The position numbers and the translations under genes were made by a program. Of a stretch of DNA of 45,787 nt, positions 1-45,787 are shown in pieces (the first letter of the stretch is position 1; each line of letters opens with the position of its first letter). This stretch comes from Oscillospiraceae bacterium (lineage in GTDB: Bacteria > Bacillota > Clostridia > Oscillospirales > UBA929), in NCBI GenBank assembly GCA_031546715.1, contig JAVBKA010000047.1, forward strand, positions 1 to 45,787, read 5' to 3'. Below the pieces are notes generated by a model that saw nothing but the letters and a program-made list of their open reading frames with translations, was not told where the DNA came from and did not search any database.

Positions 1-346
1 GTGAACTTTTCAAGTAAGATACATTCAAAACTAATCTCACACGCAGCGAAGCTCATGAGGGTGCAGCGTCACGCTGCAAAAGTTCACCGAGTGAACTTTT
101 CAAGTAAGATACAACAAAATTAATCTCACACGCAGCGAAGCTCACGAGGGTGCAGCGTCACGCTGCAAAAGTTCACCGAGTGAACTTTTCAAGTAAGATA
201 CATTCAAAACTAATCTCACACGCAGCGAAGCTCATGAGGGTGCAGCGTCACGCTGCAAAAGTTCGCCGAGTGAACTTTTCAAGTAAGATACAACAAAATT
301 AATCTCACACGCAGCGAAGCTCACGAGGGTGCAGCGTCACTCTGCA
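1..346. repeat. Tandem array of ~90-bp units (A-B-A-B; 90, 89, 90 and a partial 77 bp), putative parS/centromere region
   Basis: Units start at 1, 91, 180 and 270 with GTGAACTTTTCAAGTAAGATAC. Each contains the palindrome TGCAGCGT-C-ACGCTGCA (one mismatch in unit 4). Unit junctions form AAAAGTTCAC-CGA-GTGAACTTTT (one mismatch at the third junction). Lies between parA and parB on the circle. Confidence 0.9.
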
Positions 347-373
347 TTAAACAAAATAGTTATTTTGTTTAAT
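346..373. promoter_or_regulatory. AT-rich perfect inverted repeat just upstream of the parB RBS (possible operator)
   Basis: ATTAAACAAAATA-GT-TATTTTGTTTAAT, 13-bp arms; GGAGG at 379-383 follows. Confidence 0.5.
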
Positions 374-391
374 ATATTGGAGGGTGTCATT

Positions 392-1252
392 ATGTCGTTA
401 AAGAAAAAAGATTTGTCTAGCCAGTCCCCGTCATCCGCTGCTGCTTTGTTGCCATCTTTGATGGCATCTATGGCAGTACCGCATATAGAATTGCCTGTTG
501 CGTCTCTTACGCCTGCTCCAGCTGATTGGAATTTCTTTTCGCCACTGCCTGACGGGAAATTTTTAGAACTGTGCGACTCTATTTCTCAGCATGGGCTAAT
601 TCATCCGCTTTTTATATGGGAAGCTCCAAACGGTGAAAAAATCATTTTATCCGGTCATAACCGTGTTCGTGCACTACAATCCCTATATGATGCCACAGGT
701 GACGCAAAATTCAACATCGCTCCCTGTGTCATCCGCCGCGACATATCAGAAGCCGAAGCACGCTCTTTGATAATAGACGCTAACTGGGTTGGACGTGTAC
801 TATCACCCTCCGAAAAAGCTCGCTGCGTTGCAAGACGATATGCCGAAACTGGCAGACTTGAGCGTGGCACGGGAATCCGTGCATACGACAAGGTAGCCAT
901 ACATTTTGGAATAAAAGCTACGCAAGTTTATAATTATATTAAAATTGCCTCCCTGCCTGACGAAGTTCTCAAAAAAGTTGACAGTGGTGCAATTTCACTT
1001 AAAGCCGCAGCAATGCTGACAAAGCTTACAGAACCACGGCTTGAAGGACTTCTTGAGACATTAGGCGAAAATCTCAGCACAGAAAGCATTAAAAATACAT
1101 TAAATGAAGACAATGTTGAAACTCTAAAATTTACTGTTCCGTATTATTTAGTCGAAAGTGTTAAAGCTGCTGTGGACGTCGTTTTAAATCAACCCCATCT
1201 TGCCCCGCAGCGTGACGCTGCGCCCAACAGGGCTTCGCCATGTTCTCGATAA
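392..1252 (+). CDS. parB: ParB/RepB/Spo0J-family partition protein
   Basis: ParB N-domain motifs (L..SI..HGLIHPL; ILSGHNRVRAL CTP-binding box), then LSPSEKA and an HTH-like region. GGAGG RBS supports ATG 392 rather than GTG 329. Confidence 0.88.
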   Translation: MSLKKKDLSSQSPSSAAALLPSLMASMAVPHIELPVASLTPAPADWNFFSPLPDGKFLELCDSISQHGLIHPLFIWEAPNGEKIILSGHNRVRALQSLYDATGDAKFNIAPCVIRRDISEAEARSLIIDANWVGRVLSPSEKARCVARRYAETGRLERGTGIRAYDKVAIHFGIKATQVYNYIKIASLPDEVLKKVDSGAISLKAAAMLTKLTEPRLEGLLETLGENLSTESIKNTLNEDNVETLKFTVPYYLVESVKAAVDVVLNQPHLAPQRDAAPNRASPCSR

Positions 1253-1361
1253 AACTTGCGGCTAACCTCTGAAAAGTTCACCGAGTGAACTTTTCAGCCA
1301 ACCCACCTACAAACTAATCTAAATATGCAGCGAAGCTCTAGAGGGTGCAGCGTCACGCTGC
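1207..1361. repeat. ~155-bp mirror-symmetric element, copy 2 (parB-rep junction)
   Basis: GCAGCGTGACGCTGC...GGGCTTCGC...GAAAAGTTCAC-CGA-GTGAACTTTTC...GCGAAGCTC...GCAGCGTCACGCTGC. Homologous to 45565-45719. Confidence 0.9.
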
Positions 1362-1372
1362 CGGAGGGTGTT

Positions 1373-3031
1373 ATGAAAAAAACGTTGTTACGGGCAGTTA
1401 ATGATATGAATCATATTTTAATGTCCTTTAATGAAAAACTGATTAACGAAGTGGTTTTGCGTACATTTGTAAACCTTTGTGCAAGGATTGCAAAAAATTC
1501 TCCTCCCACTATAGTTGCGCATATTACAAAACTTATTGAGCTTGAGTATATGCCTGAACAGCAAGAGGAAAACTCACTTTGGGAAGAGGCAAGCCTATTT
1601 AATTTTTATTTAGTAAGATATAGCTTTGAACAAGCAGGAATAAATTTTCACCCAGAACTTTTTAAGAAAATATACACATTAAGCGTAGCAATGTTACCAG
1701 AAAACGAAGCTAATCCATTGCTAATTTCAATACCAAGTCATATACTTTATGAAAAATTAGCCATGGCCGTTGCCACTGGAAAAAAAGGCTCATTTACAAG
1801 CGAAAATTCCGACAAATGGCCTACACATCATGTTATAGAAAAATCTTTATCCGCAAATTTTCTCATGCGCCCATCCTTTGACAGACCGCTAAGCCTTATT
1901 GAAAGCTCCCCTGGATATACTTCACTTTTACAGCTGATGCAAACTAGGCTAACTCATCTTGATGAGCTGACAATGGATGTAATGCACATAATTTGCGCAC
2001 GCTGGCTAGAAGCAAATCCAAGCACATCAACAGAACAAATACGCTTAACAGCAGACGATATTTTAGAAGCCAGAGGACTAAAACGTCACTTAAATGCAGA
2101 CGGCAGACGAGGGGGCTTCACACGAGAGCAAAGAGACAGTATCCACCTGCGAATGGCGGCACTTTCTTCCCTATGGGTAAGCGTAAATGATATGCGTATT
2201 ACAGTGTTAGAGAGTGGAAAACGTGTGCGAAAATCCACCAGATATGAATCCCCTGCCTTGGTAATTACTGGTCGTTTTGGTGAAATTAGCGAAGATGGTG
2301 ACGTAGATTTATGGACATGGAATGTACGCCCAGGAGACGTATTTTCTGCTTTTTTGCTAGATCCAGCCAGCAGAGAAATTGGACTTTTTCCAGAAAAATC
2401 TTTAACCTATGACCCAATACGCCAGAGCTGGGAAAAAAAGTTATCCTTTTATTTATCATGGCAATGGAGAATTCAACGGTCAAAAGGCTACTTTAAGCCA
2501 TACAAAGTACAAACGTTGCTGAACGCCATTCACGAAGAAATAGATACCGCACATCCAGTACGAACCAGAGAGCGACTAGAAAAAGCTCTTGACACACTAG
2601 AAGAAGATAAGCTAATTCAAAAATGGCAATACGGAAGAAGCTGTCATGAAGAAGAGCTTCCCTTAAAGGGCTGGCACTCTGCTTGGTTAAATTGGAACAT
2701 AAACATTAAGCCCACAAAACAAATAATAACCCCCATACTTCAAAATGAAGACCCCAAAGAAAACCAACTGTCACTTTTTAATATATCCGATGAAATACCA
2801 ACAAAAGATGACCCAAATGCAGATAACTGTGAACAAAAATCTATTGCTTCTTGTCCACCAGATTATGCAGAAACGTTAAAATCACTAAGAGCAACTGCAG
2901 GTCTTTCTCAGGGGCAAGCAGCCGCAAAATTAGGGGTTGCAAGAACCCTAATTAATCAGGTTGAATCAGGCAAAAAAACAGCCTCTGCAGCACTGATTTT
3001 GAAGATAGAAAAATGGGCAAAAAACCCCTAG
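1373..3031 (+). CDS. Putative plasmid replication initiator with C-terminal XRE/cro-type HTH
   Basis: Follows parAB and directly precedes iterons. C-terminal LKSLRATAGLSQGQAAAKLGVARTLINQVESGKK is an XRE HTH. GGAGG RBS supports ATG 1373. The Rep role is inferred from context. Confidence 0.62.
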   Translation: MKKTLLRAVNDMNHILMSFNEKLINEVVLRTFVNLCARIAKNSPPTIVAHITKLIELEYMPEQQEENSLWEEASLFNFYLVRYSFEQAGINFHPELFKKIYTLSVAMLPENEANPLLISIPSHILYEKLAMAVATGKKGSFTSENSDKWPTHHVIEKSLSANFLMRPSFDRPLSLIESSPGYTSLLQLMQTRLTHLDELTMDVMHIICARWLEANPSTSTEQIRLTADDILEARGLKRHLNADGRRGGFTREQRDSIHLRMAALSSLWVSVNDMRITVLESGKRVRKSTRYESPALVITGRFGEISEDGDVDLWTWNVRPGDVFSAFLLDPASREIGLFPEKSLTYDPIRQSWEKKLSFYLSWQWRIQRSKGYFKPYKVQTLLNAIHEEIDTAHPVRTRERLEKALDTLEEDKLIQKWQYGRSCHEEELPLKGWHSAWLNWNINIKPTKQIITPILQNEDPKENQLSLFNISDEIPTKDDPNADNCEQKSIASCPPDYAETLKSLRATAGLSQGQAAAKLGVARTLINQVESGKKTASAALILKIEKWAKNP

Positions 3032-3052
3032 GTGTCACGAAAAAAAGGGCAA

Positions 3053-3118
3053 ATGTCGCCACCATCCTGTCGCAATGTCGCCATTACCCTGTCGCAATGT
3101 CGCCATTACCCTGTCGCA
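3053..3118 (+). repeat. Three 22-bp direct repeats (iterons) of the putative origin
   Basis: ATGTCGCCACCATCCTGTCGCA at 3053, ATGTCGCCATTACCCTGTCGCA at 3075 and 3097. Each unit holds two TGTCGC cores. Confidence 0.85.
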
Positions 3119-3169
3119 AGCACTTTTTATAAGCCTTGCAGCGCAACGGTTTCAGCGAGGTGTCACAGC

Positions 3170-3274: not shown

Positions 3275-4996
3275 ATGGAAATAAGAGAATTTACCTCACT
3301 TTTGAAAAAAATAAAACGTCAAAAAGATGGGTATATCGCCTGCTGTCCTGCCCATGATGATAAAACACCTTCACTTTCCATTAAATCTGCTGAAGACGGT
3401 AAAATTTTGCTTCATTGTTTTGCTGGTTGTGATACTTCATCTATTTTGTCAACAATGAAACTTACGGAATCCGATTTATTTCCACAAGAAAAACAAAAAA
3501 TTATTAAAAAAAATTCACCAACTCTAAAAAAAATATATACATATTGCGATATTAATAACAACCCCATTTTTGAAGTATGCCGCTACGAGCCCAAGGACTT
3601 TCGCATACGCCATTTTGGGAATGGGGGGTACATCTATGGGCTAGGGGACATCCAGCCCGTCTTGTACAACCTCCCAGAGGCATCACAAGCGGATACGGTG
3701 TATATATGCGAAGGTGAAAAGGACGCAGACTTACTAATTGCCCATGGACTTGCGGCAACGACTGCTCCAATGGGAGCGGGAAAATGGCGAGAGAGCTATA
3801 CTGAGCAGCTTTTGCATGTAAAAAAAGTTGTAATCATCCCGGACTGTGACAGCGCAGGGAAAAAACATGCGTATCAAATTATAAAAGCCATGAACAAAAT
3901 ACCCTGCGAAATTATTGACCTTAAATCAATTGACCCAAGCTTACCTGATAAATCTGATGTATCAGATTTATTAAAAAACCATACACTTGATGAACTACTA
4001 TCAGCTCCTCGAATAGCAGGTGAAAACTATTTAACTGATAATGTAAATGTTTCAGACCAAACAGCAACCATTATTCTTCAAAACTATGTTAAAAATAATT
4101 TTTGGGCAGATATTAATAAAAATAAAGATTCTTTTTTTATGCGTACTGGGTTTCCCTCGCTAGATAAAATTTTAGGTAACACATTGTCCCCAGGATTATA
4201 CATACTTGGCGCAGTATCATCTCTTGGTAAAAGTGCTTTTTGTTCTCAATTATGCGATACATGGGCATTACAACACCATCATGTATTGTTTTTTTCCTTA
4301 GAAATGTCTGTGCATGAAATGACAGCAAGAACACTCGCAAGACTATTATTTCAGCATAAACCAGAGCAAGAAACATCCATTACTACTGGAGATATTTTAC
4401 GAGGAAACGTAGATAAGCTAAAACTTACAGAAATAATTGAAAATCAATTATCAAATTTTGACAAGTATATTACATACGCAGAAGGTAATTTTAATATAGG
4501 AGTTTCTCAAGTGCGTAGCATTTGCGAGGAATACAAAGAAACATATAGCGTAAAACCAATTGTTTTTATTGATTATTTACAAGTTTTGACGCCTTCATCA
4601 GCACGGTTGACAGATAAGCAATCTGTAGATTATAATGTAGTCGAATTAAAACGAATTTCTAGAGATTTAGACATACCAATTATTGCGGTTTCTTCACTAA
4701 ACAGGCAAAATTATAACGAAGAATTGAACTTTTCAGCGTTCAAAGAGTCAGGGGCAATTGAGTACTCTGCAGATTTTGTAATGGGCCTGCAAGCATCAGG
4801 AGTTTCAGCAGCAGCGTCAAATATGGCGGTTGACGAAAAAAAACTAACAAGACAGATTGCACAGTGCGTTAAAACTGTAAAAATGCAGATACCTAGACAG
4901 TTGGAAGCAGTGGTGCTGAAGAATCGGCGGGGTGAGGCTATGGGCAAGTTTGAGCTTAGGTATTGGCCGGGGCAGAATTGGTTTGAGGAAGGGTAG
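3275..4996 (+). CDS. Fused primase-helicase (Zn-binding + TOPRIM + DnaB-like SF4 helicase)
   Basis: CPAHDD...LLHCFAGC zinc motif; VYICEGEKDA and IIPDCD TOPRIM motifs; GAVSSLGKS Walker A, FSLEM, IDYLQ, SSLNR, ESGAIEYSAD and KNRRG helicase motifs. Confidence 0.9.
   Translation: MEIREFTSLLKKIKRQKDGYIACCPAHDDKTPSLSIKSAEDGKILLHCFAGCDTSSILSTMKLTESDLFPQEKQKIIKKNSPTLKKIYTYCDINNNPIFEVCRYEPKDFRIRHFGNGGYIYGLGDIQPVLYNLPEASQADTVYICEGEKDADLLIAHGLAATTAPMGAGKWRESYTEQLLHVKKVVIIPDCDSAGKKHAYQIIKAMNKIPCEIIDLKSIDPSLPDKSDVSDLLKNHTLDELLSAPRIAGENYLTDNVNVSDQTATIILQNYVKNNFWADINKNKDSFFMRTGFPSLDKILGNTLSPGLYILGAVSSLGKSAFCSQLCDTWALQHHHVLFFSLEMSVHEMTARTLARLLFQHKPEQETSITTGDILRGNVDKLKLTEIIENQLSNFDKYITYAEGNFNIGVSQVRSICEEYKETYSVKPIVFIDYLQVLTPSSARLTDKQSVDYNVVELKRISRDLDIPIIAVSSLNRQNYNEELNFSAFKESGAIEYSADFVMGLQASGVSAAASNMAVDEKKLTRQIAQCVKTVKMQIPRQLEAVVLKNRRGEAMGKFELRYWPGQNWFEEG
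4607..4636 (+). promoter_or_regulatory. Consensus sigma-A promoter inside the helicase CDS, facing glycan operon A
   Basis: TTGACA (4607-4612), 18 nt, TATAAT (4631-4636). The palindrome ACAGAT-N5-ATCTGT overlaps the -35 box and spacer. Confidence 0.6.
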
Positions 4997-5207: not shown

Positions 5208-6077
5208 GTGAGCAATGTAAAAAATAATTGTACGTTAGTTGTTTGCAGTTGCGATAGATATGAGGATTTATGGTTTCCCTTCTTTGAAATGTTTTCTATT
5301 AATTGGGCAAATTGTCCTTATCCTGTTGTTTTAAATACAGAGTCGAAGAGCTTTTCTCACCCTAAGGTATCAGTAAAGACTCAGCAGCTATATATTAACA
5401 CTGCAACACCTCCATGGGCTCGACGACTTATCGAGACGCTTAAAAAGATTGACACTGAATACGTTTTTTTGACACTGGATGATTTTTTTATTGTTGAGCC
5501 TGTAAATCAGAGTAAAATTGATGAATGCATAGGCTATATGGAAAAAGATCGTAACATCGGCGCATTTCAGTTTGAAAGCGCTGGATATTCGCCAGCCCGT
5601 ACGAGAAAAAGTGGTACGCCTGGCGATGATCATAATCCATCTAAAATAACCGGGTTTTTTATTAAAAATCATAAACGTCACTGGAAGTGTCAAGTTGTCC
5701 CTTCTATTTGGCGAAGAAAAACCTTAATCAAGTATTTACGACCACACGAAAGTGCATGGGGATGGGAAGCTTGGGGCAGCATGCGTGCGCGTAGATATAA
5801 AGAAGATATTTATGGCGAAATTAACACCGACGACATGGTTTATAAGTTTGCATTTGAGCCAAGGATGGGTGGTGCATCAGCTGTTGTAAATGGTAAGTGG
5901 GTAGTTAGTGCAGTTGATTCTGTATTTAAAACGTATGGAATAGAAGTTGATTATTTAGGACTTGGCACAACGACAATTGAGGCTTATTCAAGCGCCACTT
6001 TAAACGGAACTATATTAAAAATGCCAATTCCTATGATTATTAAAAAAACTATTGGAGTAATAAAATCCTTAATATAA
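5208..6077 (+). CDS. Putative GT-A-fold glycosyltransferase / glycan-cluster protein
   Basis: CDRYEDLW, YVFLTLDDFF (DXD-like) and PSIWRR motifs; first gene of the glycan cluster. Confidence 0.55.
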   Translation: MSNVKNNCTLVVCSCDRYEDLWFPFFEMFSINWANCPYPVVLNTESKSFSHPKVSVKTQQLYINTATPPWARRLIETLKKIDTEYVFLTLDDFFIVEPVNQSKIDECIGYMEKDRNIGAFQFESAGYSPARTRKSGTPGDDHNPSKITGFFIKNHKRHWKCQVVPSIWRRKTLIKYLRPHESAWGWEAWGSMRARRYKEDIYGEINTDDMVYKFAFEPRMGGASAVVNGKWVVSAVDSVFKTYGIEVDYLGLGTTTIEAYSSATLNGTILKMPIPMIIKKTIGVIKSLI

Positions 6078-6093: not shown

Positions 6094-6136
6094 AGTGATA
6101 TTCCAGAACAACCAAGAGTTGTTCTGGAATATCACT
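6094..6136. repeat. Perfect 19-bp inverted repeat next to the RBS of the sialyltransferase-like gene
   Basis: AGTGATATTCCAGAACAAC-CAAGA-GTTGTTCTGGAATATCACT; no U-tract on the + strand. Confidence 0.8.
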
Positions 6137-6153
6137 TGTGGAGGTATGTTACA

Positions 6154-7287
6154 TTGGATTTTTATTTTGCAGGCGGTCCATATTATATTTTTCACCAAAT
6201 AAATCTAGCTTTACATGAAAACAAAGGTCACCCCGGCGACCTAATTATTGCCGACATCTTTGACGGGGCAGTAGAAATTGCCCAGAAGATTAGAACGGCA
6301 AAAATTTTTGAAAATGTATATCTTCTAGATAAACGCCAAAGCGTTTTAGTCAGCGGGATTCCAAATCGAACATTGCTACGTAAGGTCGTTGGAAGGTTAG
6401 GTCGGGAATTTTTAAATCTCCCGTTTATATTATCTCAGCATAAATATAAGGGCTTTCCTTTCTATGGGAAACAATATAGATATATTTACACAGGGCTTCA
6501 AGATGGCTTTTTAAATACTTTTTATGTAAAACAAATAAAAAATGGAGGGAAATTTTTTTTGGTCGATGATGGGCTAGGCGATAGAACTCGGCATATGTTT
6601 GATATGCCGTTATTTTATAAAATATTTTCCTATTTTGGCTCACAATCTTACTATCAATATATTTCAGGCGCATATTTTTATTCATTGGATTGCATTACTG
6701 GAAAAGCGTATTATCCTTTCTTAGAACAGATCAAGCCCCAGCCTTCGGACAAAGAGATTTTTGCTAAAATCTTTGATTACCATACTGAAGATGACCAAAT
6801 GTTGCGCTATCCATTTATATATTATACGCTTGGTCGAACAAAAGAAGATTATCTACAAAACGAAATTAGCCTAATACGAAATGCAATAGGAAAATCATTA
6901 CAAACCGGATTTGCTCTGAAAATGCACCCTTGGGACGGTCCTTCTATTAGCGGGTTTCCTCTATTAGAATCAACACTCCCTTTTGAAGTTGCTTGTCTTT
7001 TCCATGATATGGACAACAAAGTTTTAATTGCATCACACTCTGCGGTTTTGTTTAATTCTAAATTTATTTACGATAAAGAACCTTATCTTATATTTATGTG
7101 GAAACTTATTGGCATACCAACAAGTGAAATTATTTTTTCCGATTTAACTCTTGATCAAATAGTTCAACACATGCTAATTGACAGGTATCGTAATCCTAAA
7201 AAAATATTTATACCCGAATCTGTAGAAGAGCTTGTTGAAATACTGGATAAACTTTCAAAGATTTTACAAGGAGGAAGCGATGTCTAA
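6154..7287 (+). CDS. Putative CMP-nonulosonate (sialyl/legionaminyl) transferase
   Basis: Bacterial sialyltransferase motifs D/E-D/E-G (LVDDG) and HP (KMHP), plus PFEV and HSAV. Same cargo carries neuABC. GGAGG at 6140 supports TTG 6154. Confidence 0.65.
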   Translation: MDFYFAGGPYYIFHQINLALHENKGHPGDLIIADIFDGAVEIAQKIRTAKIFENVYLLDKRQSVLVSGIPNRTLLRKVVGRLGREFLNLPFILSQHKYKGFPFYGKQYRYIYTGLQDGFLNTFYVKQIKNGGKFFLVDDGLGDRTRHMFDMPLFYKIFSYFGSQSYYQYISGAYFYSLDCITGKAYYPFLEQIKPQPSDKEIFAKIFDYHTEDDQMLRYPFIYYTLGRTKEDYLQNEISLIRNAIGKSLQTGFALKMHPWDGPSISGFPLLESTLPFEVACLFHDMDNKVLIASHSAVLFNSKFIYDKEPYLIFMWKLIGIPTSEIIFSDLTLDQIVQHMLIDRYRNPKKIFIPESVEELVEILDKLSKILQGGSDV

Positions 7288-8257
7288 TATTGCGATAATT
7301 GGAGCAGGCGGACTAGGGTCGAGGCATTTACAGTCTGTTGCACAAATGAAAAGAGATATATGTATTCAAGTTGTGGATGTATCTCGCGATTCACTGGAAA
7401 AATCAGCTGTTCTATATAACCAAGTCACGCATGATTTTGTTAGCAAGGTCGAATTTTTCGAGGATATTGCATCGCTTAGCACTAATCTGGATGCGGTCAT
7501 TATTGCAACAACGTCAAAACCAAGACTACACATACTAGAGACCCTTTTGTCACAAAAGAAAGTTAAAAATATAGTGCTCGAGAAATTTTTGTTTCCAAGT
7601 ATTGCTGATTATGATGAGGCGGAAAAATTACTATCAGCACACGGGTGTAACGTGTGGGTCAATTGCCCACGCCGAGAATGGACATCATATGATAAAATCA
7701 GGCAACTATTCATTAACGAAAAACTACTGCAAGTCTCTGTTTGCGGGTCAAATTGGGGCCTTGGGTGTAATTCCATACATTTTTTAGATCTGATTTCGTT
7801 TCTTACTGGCAAAACTAATGATGTAACGTGGGATATTAGTCGTCTTGACTGTGGAACTACTGCTAGCAAGCGATCAGGGTATATTGAATTTTCAGGAACT
7901 CTGTTAGGGCAGTTTAATAATGGCAGTAATTTTACCTTAACTAGTCATTCAACGGGACAACTTCCTGTTGTAATCGAACTTTTAAGTGATCAAGCTAGAT
8001 GTATTGTTTTCGAATATTGTCAGAGAGTTTTTATTTCTACCGCATCAAATAACTGGACGATAGATGAATGTACATTTGATACGCCATACCAAAGTCAGAT
8101 TACAGGAAGAATTATTAATGATATTTTAGATACAGGGGCATGCAAGTTACCGACATATATTGAATCTTCGGCTATGCACAAGCCACTACTCACTGCATTT
8201 TTAAAGCACGTAAATATTAATAAAAATGACGAGGTGACGGAATGTTTAATAACTTAG
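7280..8257 (+). CDS. Gfo/Idh/MocA-family oxidoreductase
   Basis: IIGAGGLG Rossmann motif, LEKF, VNCPRR, NSIHFLD. GGAGG RBS supports ATG 7280. Confidence 0.85.
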   Translation: MSNIAIIGAGGLGSRHLQSVAQMKRDICIQVVDVSRDSLEKSAVLYNQVTHDFVSKVEFFEDIASLSTNLDAVIIATTSKPRLHILETLLSQKKVKNIVLEKFLFPSIADYDEAEKLLSAHGCNVWVNCPRREWTSYDKIRQLFINEKLLQVSVCGSNWGLGCNSIHFLDLISFLTGKTNDVTWDISRLDCGTTASKRSGYIEFSGTLLGQFNNGSNFTLTSHSTGQLPVVIELLSDQARCIVFEYCQRVFISTASNNWTIDECTFDTPYQSQITGRIINDILDTGACKLPTYIESSAMHKPLLTAFLKHVNINKNDEVTECLIT

Positions 8258-9198
8258 GAAGTATTTGGCTTGTTGGCTCAGGGCTAATGGCTGTTGATTA
8301 TGCAAAAGTGTTATCATCGCTTAATCCTAATTTTTCTGTTATTGGTCGAAGCGAACAGGGTGCTTCGAATTTTTATCAAAAAACTGGGATTGCAGCTACC
8401 CCTGGGGGGGTAGCTGCCTTTGCAAAGAACAACGAACTCCCTAATTACGCAATTGTATCTGTAAATGTTGAAGAGCTTTCGTCGGTAGCTCTTTTTTTAA
8501 TAAAAAATGGAGTTAAAAATATTTTATTAGAGAAGCCAGGCGGAACAAATATTGATGAAATTTCAAAAATAGCTATTTTTGCAAAAAAAATTGGAGCAAA
8601 CGTTCAAGTAGCATATAACCGCAGATTTTATAGTTCTACTCTGGAGGCCAACCGTATTATCGATGCTGACGGTGGTGTAACCTCTTTCAATTTCGAGTTT
8701 ACAGAATGGTCACATCAAATTGAAAAATTAAATTTCCCAAAAGCCAAAAGCGAAATATGGTTTTTAGCAAATTCCACACATGTAGTTGATCTTGCATTCT
8801 ATTTAGGAGGTAACCCTAAAAAAATGAGCTGTTACACGGCCGGTTCCCTTGACTGGTACAAGACTGCTAGTATTTTCTCGGGCTCAGGAATATCTGAAAA
8901 AGGCGCACTCTTTTCATATCAAGCAAACTGGAAAAGTCCCGGACGATGGAGCGTTGAGATGCTTACACTAAAGCATCGTTTAATATTCAAACCGATGGAG
9001 CAATTGCACATACAAAATATTGGATCAGTTTCCGTCGAGCAGGTTCAACTCGATGATTCATTGGACAAAAAATATAAGCCCGGTCTCTATCTACAAACCA
9101 AGGCATTTCTTGAAAACAATACTATGCCAAATATCATAAATATACATCAACACTTGCAAAACATGGCGTTTTACGAGCAAATTGAGCATGGTAATTAA
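8242..9198 (+). CDS. Gfo/Idh/MocA-family oxidoreductase
   Basis: LVGSGLMA, LLEKPG, AYNRRF, NSTHVVD. Confidence 0.85.
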   Translation: MFNNLGSIWLVGSGLMAVDYAKVLSSLNPNFSVIGRSEQGASNFYQKTGIAATPGGVAAFAKNNELPNYAIVSVNVEELSSVALFLIKNGVKNILLEKPGGTNIDEISKIAIFAKKIGANVQVAYNRRFYSSTLEANRIIDADGGVTSFNFEFTEWSHQIEKLNFPKAKSEIWFLANSTHVVDLAFYLGGNPKKMSCYTAGSLDWYKTASIFSGSGISEKGALFSYQANWKSPGRWSVEMLTLKHRLIFKPMEQLHIQNIGSVSVEQVQLDDSLDKKYKPGLYLQTKAFLENNTMPNIINIHQHLQNMAFYEQIEHGN

Positions 9199-37525: not shown

Positions 37526-38536
37526 TTACTTCACAATAGGTTCACGCAATTTCAAGCCTCTAAAAACAACTCGCATAATCTTTTGCATCCATGGAAAATA
37601 ACATAGTATATATCTGATAAACAAGTTTAGGTTAAAGGGTAGTACTTTGCGCATTTCTTTATAATACTTTTTTGCATCAGCCTGACGCGCATATCCAGCG
37701 GCGGTTGTGAAATTAGACTTTAAATAAGTTTCTTCAATAATTTGAAGATTTTTTGCAGTATCTACACCTAATACTTGACAATATTTTTTTTGGAATTGTC
37801 GTAGCCCTTCAGAGTACTCAATCGCTTTTTCATAAGAACCTATAATAGGTGAGGCGTGATAAGCACTATCAGGCCTCAAAACATACTTGCATAATACGTC
37901 ATCAACAAACCCAACGCCCTTTTTAGTTGCAGGAAAAAAAGTCATTTGGTAATCAAGTGCAATCGGAGGGGCTATAACAATCAATTGCCCATTAGGCACT
38001 GTTGACAAAAAATCCTCTCTTCTATGCATAAAGCAAACAGGAGGGGCAAAGTAAAAAGAACTTGACAATATTAAGTCGAGTATATTTCCTTCTCTTTTAC
38101 TAATAGTCGGCACTACTTTTTCAGTTATATCACTATCTAACTTATTAATGTGGACAGTGCTGCAGTTGCAATGCACATAACAAAAGTCTTGATTTTCATC
38201 CAATTTTTTAGCTAAGACTTTAACATATTCTGGCTCTATTAGGTCATCGCAATCGTAAAAGAAGAAGTAACTTCCTGTAAACAGCTTAAGACCTCTATTA
38301 TAACCGCCGCCATTTGAATTAATCGGCAATTTATCGTATATTATGCGAATGCCCCGTTCTAGTAGCTTTGATTGCCATTGATAAAACTTGGATTCTGTTT
38401 CATCAGTAGACGCATGATTAACAAAAACAAGCTCTATGTTATCATACGTTTGGGATAAAATGCATTTAAAATATGTGTCAAGATATGGTGCCCCATTATA
38501 ACAGGTTGTAATTATGCTTACTAGCGCTTTTGCCAT
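37526..38536 (-). CDS. Glycosyltransferase family 2
   Basis: LVSIITTCYN, NHASTD, DCDD. Confidence 0.87.
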   Translation of the reverse strand: MAKALVSIITTCYNGAPYLDTYFKCILSQTYDNIELVFVNHASTDETESKFYQWQSKLLERGIRIIYDKLPINSNGGGYNRGLKLFTGSYFFFYDCDDLIEPEYVKVLAKKLDENQDFCYVHCNCSTVHINKLDSDITEKVVPTISKREGNILDLILSSSFYFAPPVCFMHRREDFLSTVPNGQLIVIAPPIALDYQMTFFPATKKGVGFVDDVLCKYVLRPDSAYHASPIIGSYEKAIEYSEGLRQFQKKYCQVLGVDTAKNLQIIEETYLKSNFTTAAGYARQADAKKYYKEMRKVLPFNLNLFIRYILCYFPWMQKIMRVVFRGLKLREPIVK

Positions 38537-38541
38537 TCCCT

Positions 38542-38944
38542 CTACCCTTCCTCAAACCAATTCTGCCCCGGCCGATACCTAAGCTCAAGCTTGCCCATAG
38601 CCTCGCCTCGTCGATTCTTCAGCACCACTGCTTCCAACTGTCTAGGCACCTGCATTTTTACCGTCTTAACACACTGTGCAATGTATCTTGTTAGCATTTT
38701 TTCTCAAAAGTCATATTTGCAAACTCCTGACAATTGCAGTCTCATGATAAACCCTGCCGAGTACTCAATTGCGCCTGATTTTTTTAAATGCTGAAAAATT
38801 AAGTTCTTCGTTGTAATTTTGCCCGTTTAGTGACGAAACTGCAATAATTGGTATGCCTAAATCTCTAAAAATCCACTTTAATCCGACTACATTATAATCC
38901 ACAGATTGCTTATCTGTCAACCGTGCTGATGAAGGCATTAAAAA
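38542..38944 (-). pseudogene. Degenerate inverted copy of the primase-helicase 3' end (homologous to ~4584-4996)
   Basis: Encodes PSSARLTDKQSVDYNVV...EELNFSAFK and QCVKTVKMQ...GQNWFEEG-stop with frameshifts and a deletion. Its TAG lies 5 nt before the GT2 ATG. Confidence 0.92.
38891..38920 (-). promoter_or_regulatory. Consensus sigma-A promoter in the helicase pseudo-copy, facing glycan operon D
   Basis: Minus strand TTGACA-GATAAGCAATCTGTGGAT-TATAAT (18-nt spacer). Confidence 0.65.
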
Positions 38945-38945: not shown

Positions 38946-38972
38946 TAGCCCCGTGTCAAGACATGGGGGCTA
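38946..38972. terminator. GC-rich hairpin, probable terminator for minus-strand transcription from the mob side
   Basis: TAGCCCCGTGTC-AA-GACATGGGGGCTA, followed by CTTTTT on the minus strand. Confidence 0.5.
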
Positions 38973-39059
38973 AAAAACCATGACACATGCGCTCTGTTCT
39001 TGAAAATTTTGGAACTGTATAAAGCATATCGGAATAGATGTTCCAAAATTTTTCTACAG

Positions 39060-40558: not shown

Positions 40559-40567
40559 CCTTTAAGT

Positions 40568-40589
40568 AAAGTATAGCTTATTATACTTT
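40568..40589. other. Putative MOBV oriT / RSA-like site
   Basis: AAAGTATAG-CTTA-TTATACTTT resembles the pMV158 oriT AAAGTATAG-TGTG-TTATACTTT; upstream of mob. Confidence 0.6.
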
Positions 40590-40705
40590 GCAAGCAAAGT
40601 CAATAAGCTTTTTGCAAAGCAAAAAGACGGACAGAGGCAAGGGGCAATGCCACGGCTCTGATGAGGTTTCCCTAGTCGCTTCGGCGGACTAGGGCGTTGC
40701 CATAC

Positions 40706-40905: not shown

Positions 40906-41406
40906 TTAATTTTCCGATAAATAAGGACCTTGAAGGTGGTATGGAAGATATAAGTCAGAATCAATATAAATTATAAAAAAATCATTATTTTCTGTAAAAA
41001 GCTTTACGACTACTGAATGTCTATTACTCAACAATGGATCTTTTTCGATACGTACAATTTGACGTCTATCGCCAAAGGAAGAATGTTCATAGAAATATTT
41101 TGCGGCGCTTTCATAATTAATAATACCATCTGGAAATGTAAATTTCGTTATATCGATAGCAGTTTCACTGGATAACTCAAATCTCATGTCTATTGTTCGA
41201 CCTGTCACAGTATCAACATCAGCGGTGTAGAAGACCGTATTATTATCTCGCTTAAAAGTAAAACTCATCTTGTTTTCTGTTGTGTAGGTTATATAAGCAT
41301 CGCAAGCAAGTAATTGATATCCAGTTAGGTCATAAAGTGATTGTAGAGCTCTCTCTGCCATAAATCGAGGCGTCAGTTGTGGCATACCTCGAGTTGTATC
41401 AAACAT
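40906..41406 (-). CDS. Hypothetical protein (possibly the C-terminal part of the upstream lipoprotein)
   Basis: 166-aa ORF with no close RBS; its frame stays open upstream across the stop of 41436-42218. Confidence 0.55.
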   Translation of the reverse strand: MFDTTRGMPQLTPRFMAERALQSLYDLTGYQLLACDAYITYTTENKMSFTFKRDNNTVFYTADVDTVTGRTIDMRFELSSETAIDITKFTFPDGIINYESAAKYFYEHSSFGDRRQIVRIEKDPLLSNRHSVVVKLFTENNDFFIIYIDSDLYLPYHLQGPYLSEN

Positions 41407-41435
41407 ATAAGAGTCATCAGGATTTATATCCTTTT

Positions 41436-42218
41436 CTAAAAAACAACTGCAGTATTGACATATCCGGATCGAGAGTAAGATGACAACATATTAGTGTATT
41501 TGGGTAAATCGGGAGTAACATATTCAACACCACTAAATGAATTACCATACCCACCAGAAAAAATACGCCAGGTACTACCATCAAAACGCATTGTTAAATA
41601 TCTGGATGGCCCATTATGAATATATTCATAAAGTTTTAATGACCCATTATTGATTATTAAAATACCATTATTTAGGTCTTTATTGATCATAGTAAAATTG
41701 AATCCATTTTCATTTGTAGCATAATATGGAGAGGGTAATTCTAGAATTTCAGTTCCCTTTATTTTTAATATTAAAGAGATGCCACCACCGTAATTGCTAC
41801 CAAAATTTTCAAGGAATACAGCGATTTCATCATTAATTTCATCATCAATATTTCCAACTGAAATCCTTGGATAGTATATACCATCAAAACGTTTGGTGAT
41901 CTCAGTACCATCAGACAAAGTAACTGTCAGTTGCGAAAACGGCGAATCTTCGTTATTGTATGATTTTATTTTCGCTGTGCCTTTTTCTTTTGAGTCAAAA
42001 TTAAAGATCAACCCCGATATAATTTTATCATCTCCAATAGAGACATATCTGAGATTAGGGTTTAGCAATGACAATGAATTATCGGGCGATATAACTGCGG
42101 CAGGCAGAATTGACGACGCATCAGGATATTGGTTGCTAATATTTAATTGTGCACAGCTCGCTAATAGTATTAGAGAAATAGTACAAAGGAAAGTAGCCAC
42201 CATTTTTTTTAAATTCAA
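41436..42218 (-). CDS. Putative lipoprotein
   Basis: Basic N-terminus, hydrophobic stretch and LASC lipobox; AAGGAAAGGA RBS. Confidence 0.7.
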   Translation of the reverse strand: MNLKKMVATFLCTISLILLASCAQLNISNQYPDASSILPAAVISPDNSLSLLNPNLRYVSIGDDKIISGLIFNFDSKEKGTAKIKSYNNEDSPFSQLTVTLSDGTEITKRFDGIYYPRISVGNIDDEINDEIAVFLENFGSNYGGGISLILKIKGTEILELPSPYYATNENGFNFTMINKDLNNGILIINNGSLKLYEYIHNGPSRYLTMRFDGSTWRIFSGGYGNSFSGVEYVTPDLPKYTNMLSSYSRSGYVNTAVVF

Positions 42219-42256
42219 GATAATTTTCCTTTCCTTTTAAAAACATGATTAAATAA

Positions 42257-42358
42257 ACTATATCTTTACTGAGCCTATTCTGTCAATATTTAATTTTTGG
42301 ATATTTAGAACAAATGCTCTAAATATCTATTGACAAATAGAAGAAGAACAAGTATATT
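42257..42358. promoter_or_regulatory. Back-to-back sigma-A promoters with an intervening palindromic operator
   Basis: Minus: TTGACA (42286-42281)-N18-TATAGT. Plus: TTGACA (42330)-N17-TATATT. Between them: GATATTTAGA-N8-TCTAAATATC (42300-42327). Confidence 0.65.
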
Positions 42359-42534
42359 AAATTCATGCATAGCAAATGGTACAAACGTACGTTAAAAGCC
42401 GCACTACGCAGACGCAGTATTATAACTTATTATTTTACATTTCCAGATGGACGCATCTGACAAGATGTATTATACCCAAAAGTTATTTGATTTGCGTAAA
42501 AGTATTTAAAAATTACGAAAGAGGATGAAAAACT

Positions 42535-43395
42535 ATGGCAAATTGTGATTACACATATGATCAAGTAAAAGGCGGAACAGGCGCATTCAAGAAGGAAACC
42601 GCTCCAGTCTATTCTGAAGGTGTGGCAACTTTACAAGCACGATTAAATAGTTGTGGATATTCATTGGACGCCGATGGAAAATTTGGTCCAGGAACAGACG
42701 ATGCAGTAAGGAAATTTCAAAAAGAGTGCCAAATGACTGATGATGGTAGTGCAGGACCTGCTACACTGAAGCAAGTAGATAAGGTGTATACGAACAAGTA
42801 TTTTACGAGTAATAATACTAAAATTAGCAACACAGCATGGGGGTATTCAGAAATTTTGTCGGGAAGAATACCTGACATTGAACTTCTTGCAATAATGATT
42901 TATTATGAAGAAACAGTTGAGGCTGAAGCTCAATACGGCGTTGCCCAAGTTATTAAAAATCGAAGTAACAATAATGCATACATGGAATCAATAAGTACGG
43001 CACCAAATGCTTCAAAATGGGGCAGGGTTCTAGGAAAGAGTTCACAGTATAGTGGCGCGAACAAAACATCAACGCCAGTACCGATTAGAGGTAAATCCTC
43101 TGAAATTGATGGTATTAATCCTTTATGGAAAAATGCAGTTGATATTGCGACAAACCTTGTAAACGGGTCGGCAATAACAATACCAAAAGGGTATGTTGTT
43201 ACATATTCCGTGAATAAGGGTGTTGTCAGCTTTTCAATAGCGTCGAGCAAGACTACGGCAGTTGCATCCCAGTTATGCCAAGCTTCATATACACACTTAT
43301 CAAATCAAATTGGTGCAGGCAAAACGGGCTCATCAATAATTACGTATGAACCGTCATTTGTAGGAGCCGTAAACGTATTCTACAACCTTACTTAA
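42535..43395 (+). CDS. Peptidoglycan-binding protein with SleB/Hydrolase_2-like cell-wall hydrolase domain
   Basis: VATLQARLN..GY...DGKFGPGT..AVRKFQ...DG.AGP.T (PG_binding_1); LLAIMIYYE...VAQVIKNR...QYS (SleB-like catalytic Glu region). Confidence 0.78.
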   Translation: MANCDYTYDQVKGGTGAFKKETAPVYSEGVATLQARLNSCGYSLDADGKFGPGTDDAVRKFQKECQMTDDGSAGPATLKQVDKVYTNKYFTSNNTKISNTAWGYSEILSGRIPDIELLAIMIYYEETVEAEAQYGVAQVIKNRSNNNAYMESISTAPNASKWGRVLGKSSQYSGANKTSTPVPIRGKSSEIDGINPLWKNAVDIATNLVNGSAITIPKGYVVTYSVNKGVVSFSIASSKTTAVASQLCQASYTHLSNQIGAGKTGSSIITYEPSFVGAVNVFYNLT

Positions 43396-43650: not shown

Positions 43651-43917
43651 TTACTTGTCATAGACATTGCGCCGATGACCAATATTGATAACATTTATTC
43701 TTATTTGTCCATCATCAATTTCAGCTAATAACCTGTAAGAACCAATACGATAACGCCAATAACCTTTTTTATCACCCACGAGAGCCTTTCCGTGCAAACG
43801 TGGGTTAATGCACCCTACAAGATTTTTTTCTATCCAGCCGTAAACTATGGCAGCGGTAGCTTTGTCTAATTTTTGCAATGACTTAATAGCTTTGGCTGAA
43901 TACTTGACAGAATACAT
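43651..43917 (-). CDS. relE: RelE/ParE-family type II toxin
   Basis: MYSVKYS..A.K.L.KLD, NPR.HGK.L.G...GYWRYRIGSYRL, IGHRRNVY. Confidence 0.92.
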   Translation of the reverse strand: MYSVKYSAKAIKSLQKLDKATAAIVYGWIEKNLVGCINPRLHGKALVGDKKGYWRYRIGSYRLLAEIDDGQIRINVINIGHRRNVYDK

Positions 43918-43918
43918 A

Positions 43919-44137
43919 CTACTTTAACCCCAATATCTTTCCTACTTCATCATGGGAAAACATTTCTTTATTGAGATCACTTTCATAATCGTAAATAGTT
44001 TTCAAGTCATATTCATCCTCTAGTTTTTCAAAAAAAGCTAATTTTATAGCGTCGGAAAGTTTTACTCCATGCACTTTTGCATAACCTTCCATCAAGTTTT
44101 TTTCATTTTCCGTAACACGCAAAGAAACATGTGGCAT
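43919..44137 (-). CDS. Cognate antitoxin (RHH, DUF6290/RelB-like)
   Basis: VSLRV..EK.L...YA...G..LS; EKLEDEYDL; directly upstream of relE. GAGGTG RBS; start could also be 44143. Confidence 0.82.
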   Translation of the reverse strand: MPHVSLRVTENEKNLMEGYAKVHGVKLSDAIKLAFFEKLEDEYDLKTIYDYESDLNKEMFSHDEVGKILGLK

Positions 44138-44149
44138 GATCATCACCTC

Positions 44150-44168
44150 TGTAACACATTGTAACACA
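44150..44168. promoter_or_regulatory. Putative toxin-antitoxin operator
   Basis: Direct repeat TGTAACACA-T-TGTAACACA just upstream of the antitoxin RBS. Confidence 0.5.
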
Positions 44169-44261
44169 ACTTTTAAACTTTATCAATAACAAGTTTTCGG
44201 AATAGAAAAATAGGTACAAAGCATAAGTTAAAAGAGAATTCTAAAGATAACCAAAATTCAA

Positions 44262-44456
44262 TTATAGCAAGTTCATTGAATTAAATGCGTATGTACTCCG
44301 TATCTTTTTCCAAAATTGCCACCATTTTTTCTTTACTATCGTTATTGCGGAAGTTGATGTGCTATCTGCAATGAGTTGTTTTTGAATAGTTCCAGCATGG
44401 AGCGCTTGAGCTGTAGAGTCACTTTGTTGGGCTTCGTGTAATGCGGATGTCAACAT
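44262..44456 (-). pseudogene. Remnant C-terminus of a plasmid coiled-coil protein (DUF536-like)
   Basis: ALHAGTIQKQL and a KKKWWQFWK amphipathic tail; no N-terminal domain or RBS visible. Confidence 0.45.
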
Positions 44457-44600
44457 CTGTACACTTTGGGACTGTTCTCCGTATTATTACTTCAAAATCT
44501 CCCCACACACCGCAAAAAGTTATATCTTTTTCACTCCACATATGGTATACTGTTATCAATCAGTATACCATATTGTCTTACCCCCAGAACGGAGAATGCA

Positions 44601-45564
44601 TATGAAAATTTTTGTGGACAAGCTAAAATCCGCACGTCTTGAGCGTGAACTCACTCAAAAAGAGCTTTCTGACCTCTCAGGGGTTCATCTTTCCACCATA
44701 AAAGCCATTGAATCCGATAGAGGTGCTGACGCTGAGCATTTGGACAAGCTGTCCGAATTTTTTGGCATACCTAAAAATGAGGTATATCTTCAAGACTGGC
44801 GGGAAACTCAAATTATTTGCATTCTCAACAACAAGGGCGGATGCGGCAAAACCTCCATATGCGGTTCCCTTGCTTACTCTCTAGCTGAACTTGGTAAAAA
44901 AGTTTTGCTTGTTGACGGCGATGCTCAACGCAATCTCACTAGCTCTTTTGGTCTGCGAAAAAGTGAAAAGCATTTTGGCATGGCAGTTGCAGGCGAGGAA
45001 AGTCTCCTAAAGGGCTACATACAAAAAACCGAATATGAAAATATTGACTTCGTTGTGGCCGATGCCACAATGGGTACTCTTGACATGCTACTTTTTACAA
45101 AACTGCACCGAGAAAACGTAGTTTCTGGAATAGTTTCACCTGTCCGTGACGCTGGAATATACGATTTTATTTTAATTGACACTAATCCAAATTTATCATT
45201 ACTTAATTTTAATATAGTCAACGCTTGTAACCATGTTTTAATCCCTGTGCAAATGGCGTCCTTTGATGTTGAAGGCATTGGCACGGTGGTAGACTTCGTG
45301 GAAGGCATTCGCAAGTTTAACCCCACGGTATCTATTTTGGGCATTATCATCAACAAATACGATTTGCGTGCAAAGTCTATTACCGAAGCTGCCGAAGAAG
45401 AATTGCGTCGCCTGTACGGTCCGCTATTATTTGAAACTATTTTACGTGTAGACGTGAAAATTCAAAACGCCCAATGGGAAAACCGCCCCGTATTCTTACT
45501 CGGCTCTAGCCGTATCGCAGGCGAATACCGCGCTCTAACCCGCGAACTCCTTAAACGCTTATAG
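44601..45564 (+). CDS. parA: ParA/Soj ATPase with N-terminal XRE HTH
   Basis: LKSARLERELTQKELSDLSGV...IKAIE HTH; NKGGCGKTS deviant Walker A, LVDGDAQ, ILIDTNP. GGAG RBS supports ATG 44601. Confidence 0.9.
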
Positions 45565-45720
45565 GCAGCGTGACGCTGCACCCGACAGGGCTTCGCCATG
45601 TTCTACATAACATTTGCTGCTTTCATCTGAAAAGTTCACTCGGTGAACTTTTCAAGTAAGATACATTCAAAACTAATCTCACACGCAGCGAAGCTCATGA
45701 GGGTGCAGCGTCACTCTGCA
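45565..45720. repeat. ~155-bp mirror-symmetric element, copy 1 (parA-parB junction)
   Basis: Starts right after the parA TAG: GCAGCGTGACGCTGCACCC...GGGCTTCGC...GAAAAGTTCAC-TCG-GTGAACTTTTC...GCGAAGCTC...GGGTGCAGCGTCACTCTGC. Confidence 0.9.
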
Positions 45721-45787
45721 TTAAACACAATAGTGATATTGTGTATTATCTTGGAGGGTGTCATTATGTCGTTAAAGAAAAAATATT
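45643..45787 (+). other. Terminal overlap indicating a circular molecule
   Basis: 45643-45714 is identical to 1-72. The rest matches 341-413 (parB leader and first codons) with 7 substitutions. Confidence 0.8.

What the first reader, a model, noticed from the sequence alone, without database searches (positions are those of the whole stretch)
1..45787. Small mobilisable plasmid devoting about three quarters of its length to rare-sugar surface glycan synthesis
Seen: terminal overlap, par/rep/mob/TA backbone, no transposase, integrase or resolvase, and 33 kb encoding nonulosonate, aminouronate and CDP-dideoxy sugar pathways. Such loci are usually chromosomal. Inference: a transferable glycotype-conversion plasmid that could change phage-receptor or immune recognition of its host.
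Basis: partly seen in the sequence, partly recalled or inferred. Interest (0 to 1): 0.72.

Follow-up and report, generated by a model that had tools for sequence, protein, structure and literature searches.

The report
Glycan-coat plasmid of gut-type Clostridia
This 46-kb contig carries plasmid replication, partition and transfer genes and devotes 73% of its length to rare-sugar and sugar-transfer genes, so it is most likely a plasmid that would change the sugar coat of an uncultured Clostridia host; sugar-coat plasmids are known in other bacteria, but this replicon type was not found in the papers searched.

Summary
Observation largely confirmed. The window is a whole contig with ParA/ParB, a RepE/RctB-fold initiator plus iterons, primase-helicase, MobV, RelBE, no integrase or resolvase, and 33.3 kb (72.8%) of glycan genes.

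Corrections: the terminal overlap is inexact (111/120) and runs through a REP-like repeat. Circularity therefore rests on the parA end continuing into the parB start, with no reads available. The oriT nick motif is non-canonical, and no canonical LegC is present.

The cargo has a sialyltransferase-fold enzyme and a PglK-like flippase but no initiating transferase or ligase. Other contigs of the genome encode both, so the plasmid likely supplies the variable part of a shared glycosylation pathway.

Glycan plasmids are a known kind (Brachyspira pBHWA1, Roseobacter biofilm plasmids). What is new: the same Rep plus primase-helicase sits beside different glycan clusters in two other MAG contigs (2 of 6 loci with that pair). 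Three more primase-helicase contigs from Clostridia and one closed plasmid look alike. Most relatives carry no glycan genes. Phage or immune effects are untested.

The parts
1..345 (+). Tandem array of about four 89-90 bp units, each with a REP-like palindrome (GGGTGCAGCGTCACGCTGC) and a second palindrome (AAAAGTTCAC-N3-GTGAACTTTT); candidate parS or BIME-like array; the contig breaks here
392..1252 (+). ParB-like partition protein
   Evidence: phrog_4715 E 2e-26
1207..1361 (.). 155-bp REPIN-like inverted doublet between parB and rep, 81% identical to 45565-45719
1373..3031 (+). Replication initiator: pXO1-14-like sequence family, predicted RctB/RepE/Pi winged-helix fold, C-terminal XRE HTH
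3052..3124 (+). Three 22-bp iteron-like direct repeats plus a partial fourth (likely oriV)
3275..4996 (+). Zn-ribbon/Toprim primase fused to a DnaB-like helicase; contains a perfect sigma-70 consensus at 4607-4636 facing the cargo
5208..6077 (+). ORF with no family hit; position suggests a glycosyltransferase (inferred only)
   Evidence: no significant hit
6136..7287 (+). Predicted nonulosonate (sialyl-type) transferase, GT-B fold, with D/E-D-G and HP motifs
   Evidence: 35 of 100 homologues hit PF07388; best folds: polysialyltransferase E 3e-9, Neisseria LOS sialyltransferase
7232..9198 (+). Two Gfo/Idh/MocA oxidoreductases, possibly nonulosonate tailoring (inferred)
9219..16757 (-). Legionaminic-acid-type module, in reading order: LegB, CBS-nucleotidyltransferase, GNAT, divergent DegT-like enzyme, FemAB-like acyltransferase, NeuB, hydrolysing NeuC, CMP-synthetase
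17205..26249 (+). 3-aminouronate module with transferases: deacetylase, GT2, GT4, WbpE-like aminotransferase, divergent DegT-like ORF, methyltransferase, GNAT, Ugd-type dehydrogenase, WlbA/WbpB-like 3-dehydrogenase
26279..28015 (+). PglK-like single-chain ABC flippase (best NCBIfam hit, 350 bits, below the 1000-bit cut-off)
28083..29195 (+). Radical SAM/SPASM enzyme, 53% identical to the radical SAM next to rfbF on Brachyspira pBHWA1
29224..38536 (-). CDP-3,6-dideoxyhexose module, in reading order: GT2, split transketolase, RfbG, RfbH, two NAD epimerase/reductases, RfbF, GT2; a C4-branched sugar is likely (inferred)
38542..38943 (-). Decayed inverted copy of the helicase 3' end (353 of 414 nt identical to 4584-4996, frameshifted), keeping the perfect promoter consensus at 38891-38920 that faces the cargo
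38972..39052 (.). 82-nt hairpin element shared at 84% with the ends of contigs C46 and C33 of the same genome
39249..40352 (-). MobV relaxase, full length, HNQR and HxDExTPHxH motifs present
40566..40600 (-). MOBV-type oriT-like hairpins (IR1, IR2) with ATAAG/C where pMV158 has GTGTG/T
40906..43395 (.). Accessory ORFs: an unknown ORF, a lipoprotein-like ORF (60% aa identity to an ORF on contig C7) and a peptidoglycan-binding/SleB-like protein
43651..44167 (-). RelB/RelE type II toxin-antitoxin pair
44542..45564 (+). ParA with N-terminal HTH (type Ia layout)
45565..45787 (+). REPIN-like doublet, then a variant copy of the parB leader and first seven codons (111 of 120 nt identical to 294-413)

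Best explanation
The contig is most likely a nearly complete low-copy plasmid of about 45.5 kb from an uncultured Clostridia host, and its cargo is predicted to supply the variable sugars, transferases and flippase of a lipid-linked surface glycan that host-encoded enzymes would start and attach. Shown: the gene content; the Rep fold; the iterons; the absence of integrase, resolvase, initiating transferase, polymerase and ligase on the contig; and the presence of an initiating transferase, a PglF-like dehydratase and two O-antigen-ligase-like proteins on other contigs of the genome. Inferred: Rep binds the iterons and the fused primase-helicase drives theta replication; ParAB and RelBE keep the plasmid; MobV allows transfer in trans by a resident conjugative element. 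Also inferred: the three modules make an N-acylated legionaminic-type acid, a 3-amino-hexuronate and a C4-branched 3,6-dideoxyhexose. At least five transferases add them to an undecaprenyl-PP acceptor, the PglK-like ABC flips the short oligosaccharide, and a host ligase attaches it to surface proteins or a wall polymer.
For: Backbone. The parA end continues into the parB leader and start codons, which occur only at the contig start. No integrase or resolvase on the contig. Closed plasmids with a related primase-helicase plus ParA exist (A. colihominis 52 kb; Smac51 65 kb with glycan-modifying genes), and 29 of 237 distantly related loci have exact terminal overlaps. Host link: tetranucleotide correlation 0.856 against 0.13-0.50 for six of seven foreign contigs; an 82-nt element and a 60%-identical ORF are shared with other contigs; the REP-like motif occurs in 10 of 29 family genomes. 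Cargo. Host partners: Bac_transf on C8, PglF-like next to Wzy_C on C165, Wzy_C on C102, WecA/TagO-like on C218; 17 SLH-domain matches; a T4SS coupling protein on C171.
Against: The overlap is inexact and passes through a repeat, and no reads could be laid on it. The contig is third lowest of 66 large contigs in tetranucleotide fit, and one foreign contig (G407) fits as well, 0.862. The oriT nick motif is non-canonical. The Rep fold match is modest (E 4e-4, TM 0.30 over the query). The flippase is below the PglK cut-off and no LegC passes its cut-off. The glycan acceptor and all sugar structures are inferred from homology only.
Confidence: 0.68

Rival explanations
1. The contig is a real plasmid, but the assembly mixes two co-occurring variants, or is an incomplete piece of a larger replicon with a second par-leader copy, so the true size and content differ from a simple 45.5-kb circle.
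For: The end copy of the parB leader differs from the start copy at 9 of 120 positions, including a paired change that keeps the leader hairpin; random error would rarely do that. The start has about four repeat units where the end has one. The inverted helicase-tail copy suggests an earlier fusion or duplication.
Against: No other contig of the genome matches the par region. All backbone genes are present once and intact.
Confidence: 0.15
2. It is a chromosomal glycan island with a captured or integrated plasmid backbone, not a free replicon.
For: A 23-of-24-nt match to the terminal repeat abuts the 3' end of tRNA-Val on contig C29, which begins with dnaN/recF/gyrB-like ORFs recognised by eye. 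In a genome of the same family, rfbF/rfbH homologues (60-63%) lie beside housekeeping-like genes. None of the five related glycan-bearing contigs shows a terminal overlap, and G405 also carries sugar-catabolism genes.
Against: No integrase or resolvase on the contig and no housekeeping gene among 46 ORFs. Both ends point into the same parA-parB junction. The tRNA-adjacent motif is a widespread REP-like sequence.
Confidence: 0.08
3. It is a plasmid whose sugars go directly onto flagellin or other proteins in the cytoplasm, as in clostridial flagellar glycosylation islands (recalled), rather than through a lipid carrier.
For: The genome has three flagellin genes. Nonulosonates and diacetamido-uronates are known flagellin glycans in Clostridium (recalled, not read here). 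There is no initiating transferase on the plasmid.
Against: A PglK-like flippase is present. The nonulosonate transferase folds like LOS and capsule sialyltransferases. No Maf-type or TPR-GT2 family hit among the 46 ORFs.
Confidence: 0.06
4. It is a plasmid of another organism that was binned with this genome, so the host partners named here are not its partners.
For: GC is 38.2% against 43.8% for the genome. NeuB was not found in 29 other genomes of the family, and no full-length Rep match was found in them.
Against: Shared 82-nt element, shared ORF, family-typical REP motif and good tetranucleotide fit.
Confidence: 0.03

Closest known systems
Brachyspira hyodysenteriae WA1 plasmid pBHWA1 (36 kb; NC_012226; PMC4267127, passages read)
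   Same: Small plasmid mostly made of surface-glycan genes, with ParA, primase and helicase. Its radical SAM (53%) and RfbF (52%) are homologous to this cargo.
   Different: Spirochaete host; separate primase and helicase genes with no tblastn hit to this fusion at E 1e-5; has an integrase and no Mob; rhamnose-centred, with no NeuB, RfbH or flippase.
Deltaproteobacterium Smac51 plasmid p_unnamed1 (65 kb, closed; CP026658)
   Same: ParA, primase-helicase (39% over the helicase domain), a TA pair and many glycan-modifying genes.
   Different: No hit to this Rep family; non-mobilisable by MOB-suite; different sugars. I saw 49 of its 65 kb.
Roseobacter RepA-I 'biofilm plasmids' (PMC5030684, abstract and outline read)
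   Same: A replicon family dedicated to polysaccharide genes plus an export ABC transporter, horizontally transferred; curing changes surface behaviour.
   Different: Alphaproteobacteria, RepA-I replicon, conserved rhamnose core. Here the cargo differs between relatives and depends on host initiation and ligation.
pXO1-14/pXO1-16 minireplicon of Bacillus cereus group megaplasmids (PMC4219350, passages read)
   Same: The Rep is a distant pXO1-14-like protein (24-27% identity over 70-80% of its length).
   Different: Here it sits with iterons and a primase-helicase on a 46-kb element. No second large replication ORF is present, and pXO1-16 was not used as a query.
Small O-antigen-converting plasmids such as Salmonella Borreze pWQ799, and Lactococcus EPS plasmids (recalled; one search found no paper)
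   Same: Mobilisable plasmids that change a surface glycan; pWQ799 relies on chromosomal WecA and ligase (recalled).
   Different: Different replicons, simple sugars, far fewer genes in pWQ799.

Membership tests
Autonomous iteron-type theta plasmid | Rep initiator with winged-helix fold | tested here: met
   AlphaFold pLDDT 84; best PDB folds RctB (E 4e-4), then RepE and Pi; modest TM-scores
Autonomous iteron-type theta plasmid | Iterons beside rep | tested here: met
   Three 22-bp repeats at 3052-3117; binding not tested
Autonomous iteron-type theta plasmid | Closed circular molecule | tested here: inconclusive
Autonomous iteron-type theta plasmid | Partition and stability genes, no integrase | tested here: met
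MOBV1 mobilisable plasmid (pMV158 type) | Full-length MobV relaxase | tested here: met
   NF041497 209 bits against cut-off 100; 367 aa
MOBV1 mobilisable plasmid (pMV158 type) | oriT with overlapping inverted repeats | tested here: met
   IR2 arms match; IR1 is identical to that of S. mutans pMut2
MOBV1 mobilisable plasmid (pMV158 type) | GTGTG/T nick sequence | tested here: not met
   ATAAG/C at that position
GDP-linked legionaminic acid pathway | LegB, nucleotidyltransferase, hydrolysing epimerase, synthase, CMP-synthetase | tested here: met
   LegB, NeuC and NeuB above cut-off; the other two by Pfam
GDP-linked legionaminic acid pathway | LegC aminotransferase | tested here: not met
   Best TIGR04181 score 204 against cut-off 420, on the WbpE-like gene; only a divergent DegT-like ORF sits in the module
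WbpA/B/E 2,3-diacetamido-uronate pathway | WbpB and WbpE homologues | tested here: met
WbpA/B/E 2,3-diacetamido-uronate pathway | UDP-GlcNAc 6-dehydrogenase (WbpA type) | tested here: not met
   The dehydrogenase scores as TuaD/Ugd (460 bits) far above the UDP-ManNAc/GlcNAc dehydrogenase models (173 and 48 bits)
CDP-3,6-dideoxyhexose pathway | RfbF, RfbG, RfbH | tested here: met
   All above NCBIfam cut-offs
Self-sufficient Wzy- or ABC-dependent polysaccharide locus | Initiating phosphoglycosyltransferase plus polymerase or ligase in the locus | tested here: not met
   None among the 46 ORFs, and only one polytopic membrane protein; found on other contigs
Serotype- or glycotype-converting plasmid | Surface glycan changes with plasmid presence | not testable with these tools
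   Needs cured and carrying strains

The most novel reading that the evidence does not exclude
An undescribed family of primase-helicase replicons in gut Clostridia acts as an exchangeable store of whole surface-glycan cassettes. Each plasmid plugs a different rare-sugar set into host initiation and ligation enzymes, so glycotype, and with it phage range and immune visibility, is set by plasmid content. In this member a duplicated helicase tail supplies the promoters for both outer arms of the cargo.
Probability: 0.3. Interest if true: 0.75.

Novelty: new variant of a known kind. Interest (0 to 1): 0.5.

Why it matters
If surface-glycan type in uncultured gut Clostridia travels on plasmids, then phage host range, antibody binding and strain identity could change without chromosomal change. 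Genome bins that drop plasmids would also miss these loci altogether. The cargo offers several uncharacterised enzymes for carbohydrate biochemistry: a family-less sialyltransferase-fold protein, a split transketolase beside RfbH, divergent DegT-like proteins and a radical SAM shared with the Brachyspira plasmid. The Rep family gives a marker for finding further such plasmids.

Tried and rejected
Searches that returned nothing usable. Sequencing runs: none was listed, so no read mapping was done; this is no evidence either way. Scans with the four-sequence Rep alignment found no confirmed locus in viral, metagenome or genome collections, and the wider Rep profile found none in 398 other genomes of the class. 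Rfam: no match. No tRNA on the contig. The protein Atlas gave no result for the two orphan ORFs; 5208-6077 remains unassigned. A helicase tree to ask whether glycan-bearing replicons form one clade was not obtained, so shared ancestry of the cargo habit is open.

Phage or satellite reading rejected: no structural phage genes among the 12 ORFs scanned in PHROGs or the 46 scanned in Pfam.

Terminal repeat as a plasmid-specific parS: not supported for the GC-rich palindrome, which is widespread. The AAAAGTTCAC palindrome was not seen in any other fetched locus and remains a candidate.

Selection on the duplicated promoter: not shown, because the far end of the copy is as conserved (46-47 of 50) as the promoter end (47 of 50).

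General glycan enrichment of primase-helicase elements: rejected as a rule. 0 of 80 viral and 0 of 79 metagenome loci carry glycan genes; most are short.

Literature: one search returned one unrelated paper, and searches returned none. The library lacks most subscription journals, and no supplements were read.
Full report
**Setting.** The window is the whole of contig C85 of genome G000 (2.81 Mb, 248 contigs, 91.6% complete). Its GC is 38.2% against 43.8% for the genome. The host RecA is closest to Vescimonas fastidiosa (72%) among plasmid-collection records, which points to Clostridia of the Oscillospirales type; that collection is a poor taxonomic reference. Of 99 ORFs of 60 aa or more I annotated 46 non-nested ones.

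**Backbone.** ParA with an N-terminal HTH ends the contig and a ParB-like gene starts it. ORF 1373-3031 has only an HTH hit in Pfam. It matches 522 plasmid records at E 1e-5, the listed ones at 24-31% identity and one annotated as pXO1-14-like; that family is an essential part of a Bacillus minireplicon (PMC4219350, passages). Its model (pLDDT 84) best matches RctB (E 4e-4), then RepE and Pi, so it is most likely an iteron-binding initiator. Three 22-bp repeats follow it, and then a primase-helicase fusion. MobV is full length, and RelBE is present. No integrase (0 of 14 genome matches) or resolvase (0 of 16) lies on the contig.

**Transfer origin.** Upstream of mobV are oriT-type hairpins. 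IR2 matches pMV158 and IR1 is identical to that of a Streptococcus plasmid, but the nick pentamer reads ATAAG/C, not GTGTG/T. A coupling protein exists on C171. Mobilisation is therefore plausible, not shown.

**Circularity.** There is no exact end overlap. Bases 1-72 equal 45643-45714, and the last 120 nt match 294-413 at 111 positions, running through the parB leader into its first seven codons. Closing the circle gives 45,374 or 45,642 bp and restores a parA-parB operon. Two cautions apply. First, the shared DNA includes a REP-like palindrome found in 10 of 29 family genomes, in 35 viral-collection stretches and once beside tRNA-Val on C29. Second, the end copy of the leader carries a paired change that keeps its hairpin, which suggests a real second variant. 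As context, 29 of 237 loci with distantly related primase-helicases have exact terminal overlaps, and two closed plasmids carry ParA plus a related fusion.

**Cargo.** 5208-38536 is 72.8% of the contig, 32 ORFs, in four arms.
(i) A nonulosonate module with LegB, NeuC and NeuB above cut-off, a nucleotidyltransferase, a CMP-synthetase, GNAT and FemAB-like acyltransferases, and only a divergent DegT-like ORF where LegC would be.
(ii) ORF 6136-7287 has no family hit itself, but 35 of 100 aligned homologues hit the polysialyltransferase family. Its model (pLDDT 91) best matches bacterial sialyltransferases, so the transferase for the nonulosonate is likely on board.
(iii) WbpE-like and WlbA-like enzymes with a Ugd-type dehydrogenase predict a 3-amino-hexuronate rather than the classic 2,3-diacetamido sugar.
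(iv) RfbF, RfbG and RfbH occur with a split transketolase. ThDP enzymes branch CDP-4-keto-3,6-dideoxyglucose (YerE, ErwE), and split transketolases are proposed to branch keto sugars (PMC12247030, passages), so a C4-branched sugar is likely.
A PglK-like ABC is the only polytopic membrane protein; no initiating transferase, polymerase or ligase is present. Other contigs encode a phosphoglycosyltransferase (C8), a PglF-like dehydratase next to an O-antigen-ligase-like protein (C165), a second ligase-like protein (C102) and a WecA/TagO-like enzyme (C218), plus SLH proteins and three flagellins. I infer a split pathway: the host starts and attaches the glycan, and the plasmid diversifies and flips it.

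**Cargo brackets.** A frameshifted inverted copy of the helicase 3' end (353 of 414 nt) closes the far side of the cargo. The only two perfect sigma-70 consensus sites in the window lie in the two copies and face inward (expected 0.08); being duplicates, they are not independent. I took this lead from note e1-7070566 and confirmed the sequence, but not selection or activity. An 82-nt element shared with two contig ends lies next to the copy.

**Host link.** The tetranucleotide correlation with the genome is 0.856, third lowest of 66 large contigs but above six of seven foreign contigs (0.13-0.50; G407 0.862). A 60%-identical ORF on C7 and the 82-nt element are shared with the genome. NeuB was not found in 29 relatives. 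RfbH was found in 1 of 29, beside housekeeping-like genes recognised by eye.

**Relatives.** The closest Rep and primase-helicase proteins (46-56%) come from short Logan contigs; equal contig lengths suggest that they sit together. The Rep profile found the same family next to the primase-helicase in six other loci. Two carry glycan clusters immediately beside it: G404:C1 (79 kb, labelled Oscillospiraceae; 27 of 55 scanned ORFs glycan-related by my count, with its own initiating transferase) and G408:C12 (22 kb). Three show none in the DNA held (L112, L228, L229), and one is too short (L127). G405, G406 and G407 have ParA, a more distant primase-helicase without this Rep, and other glycan clusters. 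I chose these five contigs because glycan genes were visible beside the helicase, so they are not a random sample. Unselected counts: 6 of 78 genome loci (5 with window-only queries), 0 of 80 viral and 0 of 79 metagenome loci have a glycan ORF within the flanks. Among genome loci of 12 kb or more, 5 of 28 have one, against 2 of 65 host contigs (Fisher p 0.024, a rough and non-independent comparison). None of the five contigs has a terminal overlap or MobV, so their plasmid status is inferred.

**Known kinds.** Close NeuB and RfbH homologues are on 24 and 38 of 72,556 plasmid records, including small glycan-dominated ones. pBHWA1 is a 36-kb glycan plasmid with ParA, primase and helicase that shares the radical SAM and RfbF but not the backbone. 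Roseobacter biofilm plasmids are a characterised family (abstract and outline). The kind is therefore known. The replicon, the host group and the dependence on host initiation were not found in five searches of a library that lacks most subscription journals.

**Verdict.** A real, probably circular glycan plasmid; a new variant of a known kind, with early evidence for a wider family in gut Clostridia. Interest 0.5.

Noticed in passing
window 1373-3031; L205:3623-5290: The pXO1-14-like family is described as the DNA-binding partner rather than the initiator in the paper read, yet this member folds like RctB/RepE/Pi. It may itself be a winged-helix initiator.
   Followed up: partly
G404:C1 (L188-L191), G405:C1 (L192-L196), G406:C20 (L197-L198), G407:C1 (L199-L202), G408:C12 (L203-L204): Five further contigs where a primase-helicase replication gene sits among large, different glycan clusters; G404 and G405 pair RfbF/G/H with a YerE-like TPP enzyme where the window has a split transketolase.
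   Followed up: partly
window 4584-4996 and 38542-38943: Inverted 400-bp repeats bracket the whole cargo; homologous recombination between them could invert 33.5 kb.
   Followed up: partly
G000:C29:30279-30293 (L344): A REP-like palindrome directly abuts the 3' end of tRNA-Val; 23 of 24 nt match the window's 45565-45588.
   Followed up: partly
G016 (L348) and family genomes: GGGTGCAGCGTCACGCTGC looks like a REP family of these Clostridia (13 copies of the core in G016); the associated transposase was not identified (one weak Y1 hit on C22).
   Followed up: partly
window 40498-40558 and 40706-40757: Two perfect long palindromes (28-bp arms with a 5-nt loop; 26-bp arms with no loop) flank the oriT-like region; function unknown.
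   Followed up: no
window 13133-14203 and 21177-22139: Two divergent DegT-like ORFs with an S-x-R-K-W/F motif; both match one ORF in G407's glycan cluster. A seemingly uncharacterised aminotransferase-like family.
   Followed up: partly
window 42535-43395: Peptidoglycan-binding/SleB-like hydrolase; G404 and G408 carry GH25 lysozymes at their contig ends, so wall hydrolases may accompany these replicons.
   Followed up: no
L207 (CP026658): A closed 65-kb plasmid of a cockroach-gut deltaproteobacterium is dominated by glycan-modification genes, mostly annotated as hypothetical.
   Followed up: partly
L206 (NZ_CP094683): A closed 52-kb Anaerotruncus plasmid with ParA and primase-helicase carries chromosomal-type metabolic genes (pantothenate kinase, adenine deaminase, RmuC).
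   Followed up: no
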